Shown: piece after piece, positions 40,187 to 45,572 of the stretch
How the letters are laid out: each line of letters opens with the position of its first letter
Position numbering within the stretch: the first letter of the stretch is position 1
Assembly (NCBI GenBank): GCA_963721085.1
Contig: CAVRHW010000021.1
Location: 65,580 to 129,579, forward strand
Direction of reading: 5' to 3'
DNA from: an uncultured Gammaproteobacteria bacterium
GTDB lineage: Bacteria > Pseudomonadota > Gammaproteobacteria > SZUA-229
Length of the DNA: 64,000 nt
The notes under the pieces: generated by a model
Told to the model about the DNA's origin: nothing
The model's input: only the letters and a program-made list of their open reading frames with translations
Databases searched by the model: none
Made by a program: the position numbers and the translations under genes

Positions 40187-40413
40187 TTGCCGGCAAGTTA
40201 CTTTCTCTTTGCGTGGCCAAAGGAAAGTAACCAAAAAAAAGGCCACCCCTCGACCCAGCCGCTCATAAAAAAACATGAGCGGTTCCCTCGTCAGCCACAA
40301 TCGACAGGGCCGTTGCAGAACTCGCGAGCAAACAACACTCGCTCAGACAACTGCAGCGGAAAACTCCCTGTCGATTGTGGCTTCCTCGGCTGTGGCGAAG
40401 GGGATGGTAAAAC
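40187..40413 (+). repeat. structured repeat, module A copy 1 (unclassified family)
   Basis: Hairpin GTTACTTTC.CTTTG/CAAAGGAAAGTAAC (40197-40231). Hairpin CCGCTCAT-A7-ATGAGCGG (40259-40282). GGTTCCC linker. 16-bp perfect stem GCCACAATCGACAGGG/CCCTGTCGATTGTGGC (40294-40309 / 40366-40381). Ends in AAGGGGATGGTAAAAC. Homologous in inverted orientation to 44215-44440. Confidence 0.75.
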
Positions 40414-40458
40414 AAAAAAATAGCTTGGAGTAATGTTGATTTTGAATATTCTCAACAA

Positions 40459-41602
40459 GTGCACAAAATGAATAATATTGATTTATCAAAATTTGAAGAG
40501 TCAATCATAAAAACAGGGTTTGATCTCGAATATCATGTTTCTGAAATATTGCGAAAAAATAAATGGACAGTAATAAATAACAAATACTATGTTGATGATG
40601 TCCAGCAAACCGTTCGAGAAATTGATTTAATTGCGTATAAAACAGTAACTGTTGAATCAATTGTTGTTTATACGGTTTTAATTATAAGTTGTAAGAAGAA
40701 TGAAGAGCATATATGGGGATTATTAGCAAAAGATAAGGATGTAAAAGACCCTAATACAAATTGGCATCCTATTAGCCACTGGTCTAATAATAAAACACTC
40801 GAATATATGTTCAATGAAATTAACTGGAGAGATGAGTATTTAGATATAACCAAAACCCACAATCTGTATAAAAAGCTTATCGAGCCACAGAGTCATATAT
40901 TTGCATTTCAAGAGATGCACAAAGAAAAGGAACCCCAAACCATAAATCGATTTTTTCCTCGATAAGCTCGCTAATGAAGGCGGAAGGTTATGAGATTGAA
41001 TCCCTTTCTAAACGAAAAAAATACGATTGTTTGTACAATTTTAACTTAATCTCTATTGCCGAGACAGAATTAGTAAAGTTATTTTTCGATGACAATGGAG
41101 TAACGGCAAGTATTGTAGATGATGATAAATATATTGGAAGCTATATTATAAATAACAATGATGTGCAATCTCGCATTCATTTTATAAATAGTAATAAGTT
41201 TAAAGACATTGTCTGCGATTACAATAACCTTCATAAGGTTAATCGTGAGTTTTGTATAAAGTTAATAGATAAATTGATGAAGACGCTATCAAGGTAGAAT
41301 CTAAAATAAATCTTTATAAAGACGTGTTTATAAAAAAAATAAGATGGTCGCTCTATAGGTTTATTTCTTCCGATTCTAGTATTGGGTTAAAAAGTGAAGA
41401 CTACAGAATTCACTACAATAAAAAGGATGATGTCCTGGAAATTAGCTTCCCTTCTTTGTTTGGCGATCCAACGGAAGGCGGCTTAATATCAGGCTTAAAT
41501 GACAACAGTAAGCTTAATAAAATTGTGAGAAAAGCGCTAAAAGAAATATATAGATATGATGGTGATTATGAATTTGTAAAAGAAGATGATGTTCCATTTT
41601 GA
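40459..41602 (+). pseudogene. low-GC gene for a PD-(D/E)xK-like (restriction-endonuclease fold) protein, split over three frames by two apparent 1-nt deletions
   Basis: ORFs 40459..40965, 40974..41297 and 41324..41602 are contiguous. Their upstream in-frame extensions overlap the preceding ORF ends (breaks near 40925-40965 and 41265-41297). The N-terminal part has E...REIDLIAYK...LIISCKK, resembling a D...(E/S)xK nuclease core. Confidence 0.55.
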
Positions 41603-41761
41603 TGAAAATGGTTGGCCCCTTTAGTTTTAGCAATAATAACGATTTCAATCGCCACATGAGGCTGTACTAATGAAGGAGATCTGGCCGTTATTTGTAGCGG
41701 CGCTATCCGGTGGATTAATAAAATAATAGGGGACAGACCACAATTAATTTCTCATAATAAT

Positions 41762-41829
41762 AAAGGGGTCGGTGACAAATGAGAATTATTTACTTATTGG
41801 ATTGCTTATTACTTGTCACCGACCCCTTT
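41762..41829 (+). repeat. 68-bp palindromic repeat, copy C1
   Basis: 17-bp perfect arms AAAGGGGTCGGTGACAA (41762-41778) / TTGTCACCGACCCCTTT (41813-41829) around a 34-nt AT-rich loop. Confidence 0.85.
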
Positions 41830-41845
41830 AATTGTAAACTATCAT

Positions 41846-42420
41846 ATGCTCACGACTATCAAAGTAATTGCTATATTCGTAATTGTCATTATACAAATCA
41901 CTTGTCTCAGTGGTTGTGCGGATTTATTTATGGGGATTTTGGCTCCTTCAGTCCAGACTAACGAAAAAAACCAGGGGGCTATACAATTCCCACCTGTTGC
42001 GGTTTTGAGAATTCCAGATCTGTAATTACCTTGGTCAGGGAGCATGAATTTGCACAAGGTGCGGTTAACTACAAGGTCGCGCAAAATTATAAAATAATAG
42101 GTTTGCTTAAGCCTGGCAGTTATATGCAATGGGAGGTGCGCCCTGGGACGATGACTCTCAGTTACAGACCAGTGATAGTCAAAACATGCTACGTAAATAA
42201 AGGACCGTGTATTACAAAAATTGAGGATATTTTTCAAAGGGACACAAAGTACGCACCGGGAAGATTTAGCTTTAAGGTGGAAAAAGGGAAGCATTATTAT
42301 TTGAAATTCGTTCCAGATATGACTTTGTTCGGAGATGTGCCCGGTCTCGCTACAATCAAGATAGTGAAAGCGGCTGACTTGTCCGGGCTTAAACCTCCGA
42401 TATATATGAAGTTGAATTAA
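41846..42420 (+). CDS. small lipoprotein (DUF2846-like by pattern), interrupted by an apparent 1-nt deletion near 42005-42030
   Basis: Lipobox ITCLSGC is in ORF 41813..42025 (ATG at 41846). The beta-rich remainder is in ORF 42031..42420, whose frame is open back to 41962. Confidence 0.55.
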
Positions 42421-42428
42421 TCGCAAAT

Positions 42429-42492
42429 AAAAGGGGTCGGTGACAAATGAGAATTATTTACTTATTAGATTGCTTATCACTTGTCACCGACC
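42429..42492 (+). repeat. palindromic repeat, copy C2 (right arm partly degenerate)
   Basis: AAAAGGGGTCGGTGACAA ... TTGTCACCGACC. Nearly identical to C1, including the loop sequence. Confidence 0.8.
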
Positions 42493-44020: not shown

Positions 44021-44112
44021 AGCCGTCTCCTGTAGTTTCTGGGTGTGTGGGAACAGCCAGATTAGCACTCCTGCAGGGGTGAGCTACAGGAGGCTGGCTA
44101 CATGATCTTCAT

Positions 44113-44440
44113 AGCGATTATTTTTTGACCAGTGAGGTTGGTCGAATTAAAGTGGTCAGAGTCCTTTTTCCTGGCTGCGGTTTATTTGTGTTTCTGAAGA
44201 TATGCGTTTTTACCACTCCCCTTACAGCTTGCCATGTCGCAGTGCTTCGGTAGCGGCAATCGGGCAGGACGCCCGATTGAGTCTCGTGCGCAGGACGCGC
44301 ATCGAGACGACGCGTTAGCGAAGTGCTGTGACATGGGAACCCCATGTGTTTTTTACATGGGGCAAGTTGTAGGGGCGTATTCCTTTGGTTACTTTCCTTG
44401 TACGAGCAAGGAAAGTAACTCGCCCGTGGGTGCGAGAACC
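44113..44440 (-). repeat. structured repeat: module B (44113-44232, IS-interrupted) plus module A copy 2 (44215-44440)
   Basis: 13-bp hairpin GTTACTTTCCTTG/CAAGGAAAGTAAC (44388-44419). Hairpin CCCCATGT/ACATGGGG (44340-44362). 17-bp stem at 44233-44249 / 44319-44335 enclosing two hairpins with AGGAC loops. The module B part is ~87% identical to 45454-45572. Confidence 0.8.
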
Positions 44441-44482
44441 CACTACCACCAAAATTTGTCAGCGGCAAAACTTGAATCGAAG

Positions 44483-44530
44483 AAAAAGGTGACGGAGGGA
44501 TTAAAATTTAATCCCTCCGTCACCTTTTTT
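44483..44530. terminator. bidirectional rho-independent terminator downstream of the peroxiredoxin gene
   Basis: 18-bp perfect palindrome GGTGACGGAGGGATTAAA/TTTAATCCCTCCGTCACC flanked by A5 and T6. Confidence 0.8.
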
Positions 44531-44570
44531 CTACACCTAACTCGTGTTGGCTTTGACCCCGTTCTACTTC

Positions 44571-45227
44571 CTACTTTTTCGGTGCCTTCGCAAATCGCAG
44601 ATAAGGCAGCTTAATATCAATCTCTCCGAATTTGTCCTTCGCCTGCTTATCATTCAGACTCAGCCCGACAATCACGTCCTGACCGGGCACCCAGTTGGCG
44701 GGCGTTGCGATCGGTGCGCCGTCAGTGGTCTGGATAGCATCCAGCGCACGCAAAATCTCCGCGAAGTTGCGACCCACAGACATCGGATAAGACATGGTTA
44801 GGCGGACCTTTTTGTCCGGACCGATGATGAATACAGTCCGCACGGTGGCGCTGTCGGCAGGCGTACGAGCCATCGGCAGATAGGCATCGGCTGGCAGCAT
44901 GTCGTACAGTTTGGAGACTTGCAGCGAAGTGTCGTCGATGATCGGGAAATCGGCAGGAACGCCGGCAAAAGCCTCGATATCGCGCTTCCATTTCTTGTGC
45001 TCTTCAACGTTGTCCACAGATACGCCCATCACCTTGGTTTTGCGTTTGGCAAATTCAGGTGCAAGCTGAGCAACTGCGCCGAACTCGGTCGTACACACTG
45101 GCGTAAAATCTTTTGGATGCGAAAACAGGATGGCATAGCTGTCGCCGATCCAGTCGTGAAGTGTGAGCTTGCCGGCAGTGGAGTCCGCCGTGAAGTCTGG
45201 AGCGATATCGTTGATTCGAATAGACAT
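44571..45227 (-). CDS. 1-Cys peroxiredoxin (Prx6-like)
   Basis: MSIRINDIAPDF ... FSHPKDFTPVCTTE peroxidatic Cys motif. 218 aa counted from the ATG at 45227. Confidence 0.9.
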   Translation of the reverse strand: MSIRINDIAPDFTADSTAGKLTLHDWIGDSYAILFSHPKDFTPVCTTEFGAVAQLAPEFAKRKTKVMGVSVDNVEEHKKWKRDIEAFAGVPADFPIIDDTSLQVSKLYDMLPADAYLPMARTPADSATVRTVFIIGPDKKVRLTMSYPMSVGRNFAEILRALDAIQTTDGAPIATPANWVPGQDVIVGLSLNDKQAKDKFGEIDIKLPYLRFAKAPKK

Positions 45228-45438
45228 GATAGTTGTCCTTAGTTGTTGTTCAGTTAATTTGTAAAGCCACTTATTAATAAGACATCCTTTTGCAATGATC
45301 GTTCCCATAACAATGCAGGCAAATGGGGACAAACCACGATTTCTCGGTCTTTCAGACAAACAGGCGATTTTCACTACTCCTTGCGGTATACCGAGATACG
45401 TAAAGAAAGCAGGTTAATGACATGAAACTATTTTATCT

Positions 45439-45572
45439 AATTAAAGGGGACGCAGCGATTTTTTTTGACCAGTGTGGTTGCTCGCAATAAAGTGGTCAGA
45501 GCCCTTTTTCCCGGTTGTGGTTTATTTGTGTTTCTGATGATATGCGTTTTCACCCCTCCCCTTACAACTAGC
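45439..45572 (-). repeat. module B repeat, uninterrupted copy (empty site for the IS)
   Basis: AATTAAAGGGGACGC|AGCGATTTTTTTTGACCAGTG ... CCCTCCCCTTACAACTAGCC. Aligns with 42587-42601 plus 44113-44232. Confidence 0.8.

What the first reader, a model, noticed from the sequence alone, without database searches (positions are those of the whole stretch)
40187..45572. Accessory patch after ssb: three single-gene units, each bracketed by members of one structured repeat family
All the repeats share AAGGGG / CCCCTT(TAATT) terminal motifs, with variable interiors that are conserved in structure rather than sequence. Unit 1: module A copy 1 ends in AAGGGGATGGTAAAAC (40398-40413). The low-GC nuclease-like gene follows (40459-41602), then GCCCCTTTAG (41615-41624). 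Unit 2: the C1 palindrome (41762-41829), the lipoprotein gene, then the C2 palindrome (42429-42492). Unit 3: the module B/A copy (42587-42601 plus 44113-44440, IS-interrupted), a terminator, the peroxiredoxin gene, then the module B copy (45439-45572). A degenerate copy lies at 41728-41750. One gene per pair of structured recombination-site-like repeats, plus an IS110/IS1111-family element targeting one repeat, recalls integron cassettes or Xer-dependent dif modules. The canonical cores of those systems are absent and no recombinase other than the IS enzyme is present. This may be an undescribed cassette or MITE system.
Basis: partly seen in the sequence, partly recalled or inferred. Interest (0 to 1): 0.7.

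Follow-up and report, generated by a model that had tools for sequence, protein, structure and literature searches.

The report
Repeat-rich variable spot after ssb
The stretch after ssb is a variable intergenic hotspot filled with three unrelated kinds of repeats, an RNA-guided insertion sequence that homes to one of them, and two imported genes; the evidence does not show a new gene-cassette system.

Summary
The repeats are real and strongly clustered: 10 of the window's 14 AAGGGG/CCCCTT hexamers lie in 40-46 kb. They are three families, not one.

- **A**: a highly structured element whose hairpin module also occurs in Aeromonas, Pasteurella and Burkholderia. A1's proximal part is conserved after ssb in relatives.
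- **B**: a 134-nt repeat that is not significantly structured and carries a promoter-like site.
- **C**: a 68-72-nt palindrome.

Their only common feature is the head TAAAGGGG(A/T)C. That head is the sequence specified by the seekRNA-like guide of the resident 1,511-bp IS1111-family element (42601-44111), inserted in B2 without duplication.

A heuristic search for canonical attC cores finds only one weak site. The window has no integrase and no dif-like site.

The low-GC "nuclease-like" gene is intact once assembly frameshifts are corrected. Its two closest relatives sit in canonical integron arrays.

A related metagenome contig (L055) carries the same modules around ordinary genes, not single-gene cassettes.

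Verdict: a REP/NIME-like mosaic repeat region targeted by an RNA-guided IS, plus a horizontally acquired islet. Only the C1-lipoprotein-C2 unit looks cassette-like.

The parts
39486..39944 (+). ssb gene; the upstream synteny rpoA-L17-DUF6455-MBL-uvrA-MFS-ssb is conserved in relatives
   Evidence: NCBIfam SSB models; synteny in L015, L017, L118 and L120
39945..40235 (+). Conserved post-ssb intergenic mosaic: ssb terminator (40001-40034), dRS3-like hairpin ATTCC-N12-GGAAT (40102-40123), TTTACTG..CAGTACA module, and the first hairpin of A1 (40197-40231)
   Evidence: Aligns block by block with the post-ssb DNA of L015 and L017; terminator scan; dRS3-like regex
40187..40394 (-). Module A copy 1. 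Read on the minus strand it consists of an outer stem, a long variable hairpin (arms 40293-40309 and 40366-40382), a U-loop hairpin, and the GTTACTTTCC..GGAAAGTAAC hairpin
   Evidence: Alignment with A2; fold z = -7.6; compensatory pairs
40395..40413 (-). Truncated 3' tail of a B copy (B1'), GCGAAGGGGATGGTAAAAC; it forms the left edge of the low-GC patch
   Evidence: Aligns with the B2 and B3 tails GTTTTTACCACTCCCCTT; GC falls from 0.49 to 0.29 here
40468..41602 (+). Low-GC (about 30%) gene for a 378-aa uncharacterised protein: PD-(D/E)xK-like N-terminus and a conserved C-terminal ..D(I/V)PF. It has two assembly frameshifts
   Evidence: Three-frame translation; full-length homologues at 99% coverage; invariant E/D/SCKK residues and a DIPF end; AF2 model pLDDT 90 with only weak local hits to restriction-endonuclease-like domains; no Pfam, NCBIfam or PADLOC hit
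41634..41693 (+). Only candidate canonical attC in the patch (TAATAAC...GTTATTT). It is weak and possibly a degenerate remnant of the cassette's own site
   Evidence: Heuristic attC scan; fold z = -0.8 and -1.3, not significant; its 5' part resembles the L020 attC starts
41728..41760 (+).
   Evidence: Read directly from the sequence; resembles the C2 right arm plus flank, and GGGGACAGACCAC is the arm of the IS-targeted hairpin in L107
41761..41833 (.). C1 palindrome (arms about 25 nt, 20-nt spacer, AAAGGGGTCGGTGAC...GTCACCGACCCCTTT)
   Evidence: the repeat finder D2/I5; z = -7.5; covariance model 82 bits
41846..42420 (+). DUF2846-like lipoprotein gene (signal peptide with LSGC lipobox); one assembly frameshift near 42025
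   Evidence: Three-frame translation; weak DUF2846 hit, 21.9 bits, below the Pfam cut-off
42426..42501 (.). C2 palindrome, starting 6 nt after the lipoprotein stop codon; its right arm is degenerate (CCACATT)
   Evidence: z = -4.6; 77 bits
42587..42600 (+). Head of B2 (AATTAAAGGGGACG), which is the right flank of the IS target
   Evidence: Identical to the B3 head (D10); the IS junction was mapped
42601..44111 (-). IS1111-family insertion sequence, 1,511 bp, with no target duplication. Transposase at 43007-44020; subterminal repeats ATGTAGCCAG/CTGGCTAAT; 405-nt non-coding region downstream of tnp
   Evidence: PF01548 + PF02371, NF033542; ends defined against L008-L014; restored B2 has the same length as B3
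42932..43000 (-). seekRNA-like stem-loop (GAATGATAGAG...CTCTATCATTC). It carries TAAAGGGGAC, the complement of the right flank GTCCCCTTTA, and CCCTACGAA, which approximates the left flank plus the IS start
   Evidence: 10-nt exact match at non-coding-region position 25; the region is conserved in IS copies 81% identical; guide-flank covariation across 20 insertions of the clade
44112..44232 (+). Rest of B2, including the promoter-like site TTGACC-17-TAAAGT (44125-44153) that faces A2
44233..44445 (+). Module A copy 2. Its inner double hairpin with two AGGAC loops (44225-44343) resembles TwoAYGGAY RNA; next come a U-loop hairpin and the GGTTACTTTCC hairpin (44388-44419)
   Evidence: Fold z = -14.6; RF01731 at 37.4 bits against a gathering score of 43; the same architecture in Aeromonas scores 41.5 bits on the matching strand
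44483..44529 (.). Bidirectional terminator-like hairpin (23-bp perfect stem flanked by A5 and T5) between A2 and the prx 3' end
   Evidence: the repeat finder I4; also scores 34-36 bits with the C-hairpin model
44571..45227 (-). 1-Cys peroxiredoxin gene, with host-like GC (about 55%)
   Evidence: AhpC-TSA + 1-cysPrx_C; GC profile
45439..45572 (+). B3, an uninterrupted B copy with an intact IS target (GGGGACGCAGCGA). The same promoter-like site (45465-45493) faces the small lipoprotein gene at 45785
   Evidence: not significantly structured

Best explanation
The region downstream of ssb is a synteny break point that has collected mosaic extragenic repeats of the REP/BIME/NIME kind. It has also collected an IS that homes to them and a small horizontally acquired islet.

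**Shown**
1. Three separate repeat families occupy the intergenic spaces.
   - A is a strongly folded element. Its core module is widespread in Gamma- and Betaproteobacteria. The A2 copy has a TwoAYGGAY-like double GGA hairpin, a promoter-like site upstream (inside B2) and a terminator downstream.
   - B is an unstructured 134-nt repeat with a conserved promoter-like site.
   - C is a terminator-like palindrome.
2. The only thing they share is a head, TAAAGGGG(A/T)C.
3. The resident IS1111-family element carries a seekRNA-like guide just downstream of its transposase gene. The guide holds TAAAGGGGAC and a second segment that approximates the left flank plus the IS start.
4. The IS sits exactly at GGGGACG^TAGCGA in B2 and made no duplication.
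5. Across 20 insertions of the same IS clade, guide and flanks change together. Several of those targets are short GGGG-headed hairpins.
6. The two low-GC genes are foreign. The closest relatives of the nuclease-like gene are integron cassettes.

**Inferred**
- The shared head reflects a class of hairpin ends that this IS clade has evolved to recognise, not a cassette recombination core.
- The C hairpins and the 44483 hairpin act mainly as terminators or insulators.
- B supplies outward promoters.
- The low-GC islet entered by recombination in or next to the repeats. One possibility is capture of an integron cassette at a secondary site, leaving the degenerate site at 41634-41693.
- The repeats then make the locus recombinogenic, as proposed for NIME arrays in Neisseria.
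For: **Repeat anatomy and clustering**
-.

**Structure**
- C1, C2, A1 and A2 fold far better than shuffles; B3 does not.

**A is not private to this patch**
- A1's proximal part is conserved after ssb in L015 and L017, and close relatives' contigs break there.
- The hairpin module is 82-91% identical over 45-55 nt in Aeromonas, Pasteurella, Burkholderia, Pseudoalteromonas and Ralstonia.

**IS and guide**
- Family assignment.
- Ends.
- Guide match, roughly 0.01 expected by chance for the 10-mer.
- Clade-wide covariation: own-versus-other mean longest match is 6.95 vs 5.54 on the right flank and 6.8 vs 5.23 on the left.
- The mechanism model comes from PMC11187229.

**The modules surround ordinary genes elsewhere**
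- L055.

**Variable locus**
- Gene content after ssb differs in each relative examined (L017, L118/L119, L120) and in the window. The upstream gene order is conserved in those relatives and in L015.

**Foreign islet**
- GC of 0.28-0.40 against 0.55-0.64 in the flanking genes.
- Cassette context of the homologues and a defence-island context in L121.

**NIME analogy**
- PMC1797815.
Against: - The source genome could not be scanned. Exact protein look-ups failed, and a B 19-mer gave only chance hits in 185,579 species genomes. The genome-wide copy number and distribution of A, B and C are therefore unknown.
- Within 64 kb the repeats occur only in this 6-kb stretch. That is unusual for a dispersed REP family.
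- C1 and C2 do flank a single gene in direct orientation. B2 and B3 flank prx.
- L055 is a single contig from a related, not identical, organism.
- The terminator and promoter roles rest on consensus matches (9 of 12 for the promoter; T-tract only TTTAATT).
- The second guide segment of this particular IS matches its left flank imperfectly (CCCTA-CGAA in the guide against CGCTA-TGAA in the DNA).
Confidence: 0.6

Rival explanations
1. The patch is a decayed integron cassette array (a cluster of attC sites without an integrase). On this reading the nuclease-like and lipoprotein genes are cassettes, and the C/B heads are diverged attC ends.
For: - The closest homologues of the nuclease-like gene are in canonical cassette arrays: L020 has three attC sites, and L021 has the gene next to intI with three attC sites.
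- The attC 3' parts in L020 read GCCCCTTATTTCAAACGTTAT, which resembles GACCCCTTTAATTGTAAAC at the end of C1.
- One IS of the same clade (L048/L049) sits in a sequence that looks like the 3' end of an attC, TGACCCCTTCTGAACTTTTGCCGTTAGCC.
- IS1111 members are known to target attC ends (PMC11187229).
- A weak attC candidate lies 32 nt after the nuclease stop codon.
Against: - None of A, B or C has the RYYYAAC/GTTRRRY cores. The heuristic scan that recovers the clearest attC sites of L020 and L021 shows no enrichment in the patch: 1-2 candidates per 4 kb, against 6-20 elsewhere in the window.
- The single candidate is not significantly folded.
- There is no intI in 64 kb.
- prx is on the opposite strand and has host-like GC.
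- The same modules flank ordinary genes in L055.
Confidence: 0.1
2. C, and perhaps B, are miniature non-autonomous transposable elements (MITEs) moved by a transposase encoded elsewhere. The gene-flanking pairs are chance or composite arrangements.
For: - C is a 68-72-nt perfect-type palindrome with conserved termini. Two full copies and a half copy lie within 0.8 kb.
- Related copies with different interiors occur in other metagenomes: L008, L010, L038 and L055.
- B has short terminal inverted repeats, AAGGGGA/TCCCCTT.
Against: - No target-site duplication is visible at C1, C2, B2 or B3; the AAA/TTT next to the ends belongs to the palindrome.
- No transposase with matching ends is present in the window, and no other copy of the IS ends exists.
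- B's inverted repeat is only 7 nt.
- Copy number cannot be assessed.
Confidence: 0.15
3. A new cassette system. On this reading the AAAGGGG-headed hairpins are recombination sites, and single genes are captured and excised through them, either by the seekRNA-guided IS1111 recombinase acting in trans or by an unknown enzyme.
For: - C1 and C2 are direct repeats around one gene, and B2 and B3 are direct repeats around one gene.
- The heads match or nearly match an RNA guide carried by a recombinase in the same locus.
- An IS110-family element, ISPpu9, moves a neighbouring non-IS module as a circle (PMC12288879).
Against: - No IS-end-like boxes (TGAAGATC....CTAATGGG, or the TAGCCAG subterminal repeat) flank any unit. 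ISPpu9 module movement required such boxes.
- C heads read GGGGTC, a mismatch to this IS's GGGGAC guide.
- Unit 1 lacks homologous brackets.
- L055 shows multi-gene spacing between modules.
- A1 is conserved at this position in relatives.
Confidence: 0.05

Closest known systems
REP/BIME extragenic palindromes as homing sites for IS110/IS1111-family elements (ISPa11 in P. aeruginosa REPs, ISPpu9/ISPpu10 in P. putida REPs; PMC11187229, PMC12288879)
   Same: - Short imperfect palindromes lie in intergenic DNA, often just after stop codons.
- A DEDD-transposase IS is inserted at one fixed position and orientation without duplication.
- The target is specified by a short RNA encoded next to tnp.
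   Different: - Here at least three unrelated modules share only the guide-matched head.
- The repeats are seen only in one 6-kb stretch of the 64 kb available, and their genome-wide copy number is unknown.
- No RAYT gene and no GTAG-type REP head were seen.
Neisserial intergenic mosaic elements (NIME arrays: dRS3 inverted repeats flanking RS modules; PMC1797815)
   Same: - Arrays of different short modules cluster at a few syntenic intergenic positions next to variable or low-GC genes.
- The arrays contain opportunistic IS.
- A dRS3-type hairpin is present: ATTCC-N12-GGAAT at 40102, and the exact ATTCCC-N8-GGGAAT twice in L055.
- An IS110-family recombinase uses the repeat as its integration site.
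   Different: - This is a different lineage (an uncultured gammaproteobacterium).
- dRS3-like units are few, and the delimiting motif here is the AAAGGGG head.
- There is no evidence of natural transformation or of recombination at the heads.
Integron gene cassettes / attC sites and the IS1111-attC group (ISPst6, ISKpn4; PMC11187229 citing Tetu & Holmes 2008 and Post & Hall 2009)
   Same: - Sites are conserved in structure more than in sequence.
- Single promoterless genes occur between sites.
- An IS1111-type element sits in one end of a site.
- One cargo gene belongs to a family found in real cassettes.
   Different: - No RYYYAAC/GTTRRRY cores were found in A, B or C.
- There is no integrase in the window.
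- prx is in the opposite orientation and looks native.
- The repeats also flank ordinary multi-gene stretches elsewhere.
TwoAYGGAY RNA (Rfam RF01731; candidate CsrA-sequestering sRNA, PMC2864571, PMC4333381)
   Same: - The inner part of A2 aligns over the whole model.
- It has an outer stem and two hairpins whose loops carry GGA.
- The Aeromonas copy of the A element hits the same model on the corresponding strand.
   Different: - Both hits are below the family's gathering score (37.4 and 41.5 against 43).
- The loops read AGGAC rather than AYGGAY.
- A1 has the same scaffold but no GGA loops.
- The family description does not include the GTTACTTTCC hairpin module.
pdif / Xer-dependent modules of Acinetobacter plasmids
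   Same: Single genes are bracketed by short inverted-repeat-containing sites.
   Different: No XerC-6-XerD type site exists anywhere in the window, even with 3 mismatches allowed.

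Membership tests
Integron cassette array / CALIN | attC sites with R'' (RYYYAAC) and R' (GTTRRRY) cores that pair in a folded hairpin | tested here: not met
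   A heuristic core-plus-fold scan recovers the clearest attC sites of L020 and L021. In 40-46 kb it returns only 41634-41693 as plausible, and none of A, B or C. That candidate folds no better than shuffles. IntegronFinder's own attC model was not available.
Integron cassette array / CALIN | Two or more attC sites within a few kb (CALIN), or an intI gene adjacent (complete integron) | tested here: not met
   There is one weak candidate only. tblastn with the L021 IntI against the window gives nothing better than E = 0.31. No Phage_integrase hit was found among the flanking ORFs scanned.
Integron cassette array / CALIN | The cargo gene belongs to a family found as cassettes | tested here: met
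   P0241 (75% identity) lies between attC sites in L020. P0243 (57% identity) is the first cassette next to intI in L021.
MITE | Terminal inverted repeats | tested here: inconclusive
   C is a full palindrome. B has only AAGGGGA/TCCCCTT. A has an outer stem that differs between copies.
MITE | Target-site duplication flanking each copy | tested here: not met
   No direct repeat is visible at the edges of C1, C2, B2 or B3 on inspection of the sequence.
REP/BIME-type extragenic repeats | Short imperfect palindromes confined to intergenic DNA | tested here: met
   All copies are intergenic. C2 starts 6 nt after a stop codon. The L055 copies are also intergenic.
REP/BIME-type extragenic repeats | Many dispersed copies per genome | not testable with these tools
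   The source genome is not in the collections. Within the 64-kb window the copies are confined to 6 kb.
REP/BIME-type extragenic repeats | Association with a RAYT (IS200/IS605-like) transposase and a GTAG-type head | not tested
   No such gene was noticed in the window, but it was not searched for systematically. The heads read AAAGGGG, not GTAG.
NIME-like arrays | dRS3 inverted repeats (ATTCCCN8GGGAAT) delimiting variable modules | tested here: inconclusive
   There is one degenerate copy at 40102-40123. The exact consensus occurs twice in L055 and variants occur in L015 and L017. These are too few to call an array.
IS1111 family insertion sequence | DEDD transposase (PF01548 + PF02371) | tested here: met
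   E = 3e-14 and 2e-17. NF033542 scores 175 bits against a cut-off of 140.
IS1111 family insertion sequence | Subterminal inverted repeats, and the long non-coding region downstream of tnp | tested here: met
   ATGTAGCCAG starts 7-8 nt from the left end and CTGGCTAAT lies 3 nt from the right end. The non-coding region after tnp is 405 nt. The criteria are from PMC11187229.
IS1111 family insertion sequence | A seekRNA with segments matching both strands of the target around the insertion point | tested here: met
   This is a computational test only. There is a 10-nt exact match to the right flank plus a partial match to the left flank and IS start. Guide and flanks covary across 20 insertions. 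No RNA data are available.
pdif / Xer modules | XerC-spacer-XerD 11-6-11 sites | tested here: not met
   Zero matches with up to 3 mismatches.
TwoAYGGAY RNA (RF01731) | Score at or above the Rfam gathering threshold | tested here: not met
   37.4 bits against 43 for A2. 41.5 bits for the Aeromonas copy.
TwoAYGGAY RNA (RF01731) | Two adjacent hairpins with GGA-containing terminal loops inside an outer stem | tested here: met
   CGGGC-AGGAC-GCCCG and GCGC-AGGAC-GCGC lie inside the ATGTCGCAGTGCTTCG/CGAAGTGCTGTGACAT stem.

The most novel reading that the evidence does not exclude
The AAAGGGG-headed hairpins might be more than passive IS targets. They could be recombination sites at which seekRNA-guided IS1111-type recombinases, acting in trans, insert and excise single-gene units such as C1-lipoprotein-C2. 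That would be an RNA-guided analogue of integron cassettes. It would also explain why a cassette-family gene, a repeat-flanked lipoprotein gene and the IS share one locus.
Probability: 0.05. Interest if true: 0.8.

Novelty: new member of a known kind. Interest (0 to 1): 0.3.

Why it matters
**Why the locus is ordinary**
- The cassette-like look has an ordinary explanation: repeats that share an IS homing motif, plus an imported islet.

**What is still useful**
1. It gives a clean natural example of guide-target covariation in an uncultured IS1111 clade. That helps predict the targets of bridge/seekRNA recombinases from sequence alone.
2. It shows that this clade homes to GGGG-headed hairpin ends, a class that may include attC 3' ends. 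This links the "REP-targeting" and "attC-targeting" behaviours of IS1111 elements.
3. It exposes an undescribed conserved hairpin module (GTNACTTTYCTTTG...CAAAGRAAAGTNAC with fixed flanks). The module is shared by Aeromonas, Pasteurella, Burkholderia and this organism, and is sometimes joined to a TwoAYGGAY-like motif.
4. It flags an uncharacterised ~370-aa family, cassette- and defence-island-borne, with a nuclease-like N-terminus and an SSB-tail-like DIPF end.

Tried and rejected
**Look-ups that gave nothing**
- Exact-protein look-ups of Prx and TetR found nothing on record.
- The single genome-contig scan, with the B 19-mer GGTTTATTTGTGTTTCTGA, returned 7 chance hits in unrelated phyla. A longer or degenerate pattern or a protein query might have served better.
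- A viral-contig scan for TTAAAGGGG-N40-70-CCCCTTTAA returned only unrelated phage hairpins.
- Sequence-string searches of the literature for the A hairpin returned only chance primer matches.
- The E. coli genome collection has no match to A1.

**The metagenome scan**
This gave few close relatives (84%, 74% and 62% identity); the rest were about 55%.
- It was useful for guide covariation and it brought in L055. It did not supply more copies of B or C.

**Function of the nuclease-like protein**
- The PDB fold search gave no significant match, with a best E-value of 0.01.
- PADLOC, Pfam and NCBIfam gave nothing.

**Ideas considered and dropped**
- TCGCTA as the left-flank guide segment. It is conserved in IS copies whose left flanks differ, so the segment near non-coding-region positions 52-59 is the better candidate.
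- C as a Tn3-derived miniature element. It is too short to hold two 38-bp inverted repeats.
- A as the Ssr9-type passenger of ISPpu9. The two have different organisation and there are no A/B boxes.
- My early reading that rpoB/rpoC were fragmented. The 20-33 kb stretch is the ribosomal protein operon region.

Full report
**1. What is at the coordinates**

The region reads as follows.

| Coordinates | Feature |
|---|---|
| 39486-39944 | ssb |
| 40001-40034 | ssb terminator |
| 40102-40123 | hairpin ATTCC-N12-GGAAT |
| 40187-40394 | module A copy 1, best read on the minus strand |
| 40395-40413 | 18-nt remnant of a B tail |
| 40414-42586 | low-GC patch (0.28-0.40, against 0.55-0.64 in flanking genes) |
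| 42587-42600 | B2 head |
| 42601-44111 | insertion sequence |
| 44112-44232 | rest of B2 |
| 44233-44445 | A2 |
| 44483-44529 | 23-bp perfect hairpin |
| 44571-45227 (minus) | 1-Cys peroxiredoxin gene with host-like GC |
| 45439-45572 | B3 |

The low-GC patch holds:
- a "nuclease-like" gene (40468-41602);
- a half C element (41728-41760);
- palindrome C1 (41761-41833);
- a DUF2846-like lipoprotein gene (41846-42420);
- palindrome C2 (42426-42501).

The assembly carries frameshifts.
- secY is truncated at Pfam position 250 of 306.
- uvrA is split into two ORFs, although relatives have one gene of 949-951 aa.
- The N-terminus of the MFS gene is out of frame.
- The three pieces of the nuclease-like gene and the two pieces of the lipoprotein gene are therefore best read as intact genes.
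- The frame-corrected 378-aa protein aligns over 99% of its length with about 370-aa homologues.

**2. Is the observation more than chance?**

Yes for clustering.
- AATTAAAGGGG with up to one mismatch occurs 7 times against 1.04 expected, and 6 of the 7 are in the patch.
- AAGGGG/CCCCTT occurs 14 times in 64 kb, 10 of them in 40-46 kb.
- No long repeat of these families exists elsewhere in the window.
- A covariance model built from six C-type hairpins and run without filters gives E<1 hits only between 41.7 and 46.1 kb.
- Its non-training hits are the hairpins at 44483 and 46011, which sit at gene 3' ends, and the B3 head.

No for "one structured family".
- A, B and C share no sequence beyond the head.
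- C1 and C2 fold well (z = -7.5 and -4.6).
- The A copies fold very well (z = -7.6 for A1, -14.6 for B2-rest + A2 + terminator).
- B3 folds no better than shuffles on either strand.
- Unit 1 has no homologous brackets.

**3. The insertion sequence explains the shared head**

The element is 1,511 bp long.
- Its transposase matches PF01548 + PF02371 and NCBIfam "IS110 family RNA-guided transposase".
- It has subterminal repeats ATGTAGCCAG/CTGGCTAAT and a 405-nt non-coding region downstream of tnp.
- These are the IS1111-family hallmarks listed in PMC11187229.
- Joining the flanks restores AATTAAAGGGGACG|TAGCGATTATTTTTTGACC. This has the same length as B3's AATTAAAGGGGACGCAGCGATTTTTTTTGACC, so there is no duplication.

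The guide sits in a conserved stem-loop 25 nt after the stop codon.
- The non-coding region there reads CCAA-TAAAGGGGAC-TCGCTAAC...CCCTACGAATGG.
- TAAAGGGGAC is the exact complement of the right flank GTCCCCTTTA. I estimate roughly 0.01 expected by chance for the 10-mer.
- IS copies only 81% identical, from other metagenomes, keep this guide. They are followed by (C/A)GTC(C/A)CCTTT.

Guide and target covary across the clade.
- Across 20 distinct insertions of the wider clade (52-85% protein identity), a first segment near non-coding-region positions 25-47 complements the right flank. Examples: GTAGGGTC with CGACCCTAC, TATTGGGGTC with TGACCCCAATA, TAGGGGG with TGTCCCCCTA.
- A second segment near positions 52-59 equals the last 4-6 nt of the left flank plus the IS start. 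Examples: TACAC-TGAA, AGATT-TGAT, AACC-TGAT.
- Each IS matches its own flanks better than the flanks of the other insertions.
- This is the arrangement described for IS1111 seekRNAs.

Several targets of the clade are short hairpins of the form GGGG(A/T)CAG...CTG(T/A)CCCC (L008, L010, L038, L059, L075, L107). One looks like the 3' end of an attC (L048/L049).

The head shared by B and C is therefore the class of hairpin end that this IS clade recognises.

**4. Testing the cassette idea**

For it:
- P0241 (75% identical to the nuclease-like protein) lies between canonical attC sites in L020.
- P0243 (57%) is the first cassette beside an integron integrase in L021 and is followed by three ~100-nt attC sites.
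- A more distant homologue sits in a defence-type island in Candidatus Thiodiazotropha lotti.

Against it:
- A core-plus-fold heuristic that recovers the clearest of those reference attC sites gives no enrichment in the patch. Its single plausible hit is 41634-41693, which is not significantly folded.
- There is no integrase in the window and no dif-like site.
- No copies of the IS ends flank any unit.
- prx is native-looking and on the other strand.
- A1's proximal part, up to the GTTACTTTC hairpin, aligns with the post-ssb DNA of relatives L015 and L017. Close relatives' contigs end in ssb or just after it; L015's ends inside the A-type hairpin. It is old resident sequence, not a cassette border.

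**5. The same modules elsewhere**

The 5.9-kb JGI contig L055 carries several of the same modules:
- a 78-nt palindrome ending AATAATCGCAACGTCCCCTTTAATC;
- the 18-mer GACCCCTTTAATTGTAAA, identical to the C1 end;
- the B core TGGTCAGAGTC;
- GAAAGTAAC;
- two inverted ~95-nt modules containing the exact dRS3 consensus ATTCCCGCGAAAGCGGGAAT.

Between these modules lie an 841-aa MscS-like gene, a GFA gene, a related IS and a small ORF. These are ordinary genes, and they are not arranged one per repeat pair.

Gene content after ssb differs in L017, L118/L119, L120 and the window, while the upstream gene order is conserved. The locus is a synteny break point.

The closest described analogue is the neisserial NIME array. 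NIME arrays are mosaic modules at fixed intergenic sites next to variable genes. They contain opportunistic IS and are used as integration sites by an IS110-type recombinase (PMC1797815).

**6. Module A**

A1 (minus strand) and A2 share one plan:
- an outer stem, CCCCUU.../...AGGGG, that differs in sequence but pairs in both copies;
- a long variable hairpin;
- the block TGACNNGGGAACC;
- a hairpin with a U6-7 loop, in which 4 of 9 pairs changed on both sides;
- an invariant GGTTACTTTCC...GGAAAGTAAC hairpin.

The inner part of A2 aligns over the whole TwoAYGGAY model. It has two hairpins with AGGAC loops but scores 37.4 bits, below the gathering score of 43.

The hairpin module with its fixed flanks is 82-91% identical over 45-55 nt in several other bacteria:
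- Aeromonas caviae;
- Pasteurella multocida, after dapF;
- Burkholderia cepacia, between aceF and lpdA;
- Pseudoalteromonas;
- Ralstonia.

The Aeromonas copy has the whole A plan, and it hits TwoAYGGAY at 41.5 bits on the matching strand.

B2 and B3 both carry TTGACC-17-TAAAGT facing rightwards. Their differences fall in the spacer. B2 could therefore drive a ~375-nt A2 transcript ending at the 44483 hairpin; this is inference.

With only two to four sequences, compensatory changes cannot separate RNA function from the way DNA palindromes arise.

**7. Verdict**

The most likely reading (about 0.6) is a REP/NIME-like mosaic repeat region at a variable locus. Its shared head is the homing motif of a seekRNA-guided IS1111 element. 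A horizontally acquired two-gene islet lies in it, and one of those genes comes from the integron cassette pool.

Rivals:
- decayed integron array, about 0.1;
- MITEs, about 0.15;
- a new hairpin-based or RNA-guided cassette system, about 0.05.

The main gap is that the source genome could not be scanned.

Noticed in passing
window 40197-40231 and 44388-44419; L122:1502-1553; L123:2501-2545; L124:2501-2551: A hairpin module, GTNACTTTYCTTTG-loop-CAAAGRAAAGTNAC, recurs with fixed flanks: GGGGYGNCCTTTYTTTTG on one side and a CG-rich mini-hairpin on the other. It is 82-91% identical in Aeromonas, Pasteurella, Burkholderia, Pseudoalteromonas, Ralstonia and this organism. It is always intergenic and has no Rfam family or literature match. 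In Burkholderia it abuts the sRNA candidate Bp1_684 (RF02421).
   Followed up: partly
window 44225-44343 (+); L122:1603-1669 (-): TwoAYGGAY-like double hairpins with GGA loops score just below the Rfam threshold (37.4 and 41.5 against 43). They are embedded in the A scaffold. In the window, a promoter-like site lies upstream (44125-44153) and a strong terminator downstream (44483-44529). This may be a gammaproteobacterial branch of a candidate CsrA-sponge RNA.
   Followed up: partly
window 40468-41602; proteins P0241-P0360: An uncharacterised ~370-aa family with no Pfam, NCBIfam or PADLOC hit. It has an invariant E..DD..RE.D...SCKK nuclease-like N-terminus. The confident AF2 model (pLDDT 90) has no significant PDB neighbour. 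The C-terminus is a nearly invariant ..DIPF like the SSB tail. The family is found in integron cassettes and in a type I R-M/integrase island. Here it happens to lie just after ssb.
   Followed up: partly
L009:4100-9900: After guaA lies an array of five toxin-antitoxin pairs (HigB, Gp49, RelE, PIN, ParE types). They are separated by 115-nt repeats that each repeat the last ~20 nt of guaA, as if small units had integrated serially at the guaA 3' end. An IS of the same clade sits at the end of the array.
   Followed up: no
window 40102-40123; L055:30-49 and 5790-5809; L015:8469; L017:12127: Hairpins of the neisserial dRS3 type occur in these uncultured gammaproteobacteria: ATTCCC-N8-GGGAAT exactly in L055 and looser versions elsewhere. 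The 2007 comparison (PMC1797815) stated that NIME arrays had not been seen outside Neisseria.
   Followed up: partly
window 28946-30001, 34826-37676, 37877-39269: secY, uvrA and the MFS transporter gene are interrupted by frameshifts, which points to uncorrected indel errors in the assembly. ORF-based calls anywhere in this window should allow for this.
   Followed up: partly
window 17362-17431 and 17529-17598: A 70-nt direct repeat (86% identity) containing CCACCCCCC...AAAAGGGGGTGG lies among the tRNA genes upstream of tuf. It accounts for the 3 AAGGGG/CCCCTT hexamers in the 16-18 kb bin, 3 of the 4 outside the patch.
   Followed up: no
L017:12395-12740: A ~340-bp element is bounded by inverted repeats AAAAGGGGTCAGGTCTTTGGTTTA / TAAATCAAAGACCTGACCC and encodes a small HTH peptide. 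The same GGGGTCAGGTCTTTGATTT repeat occurs twice in L009 (7948-8016). It is another GGGG-headed repeat class in this group of organisms.
   Followed up: no
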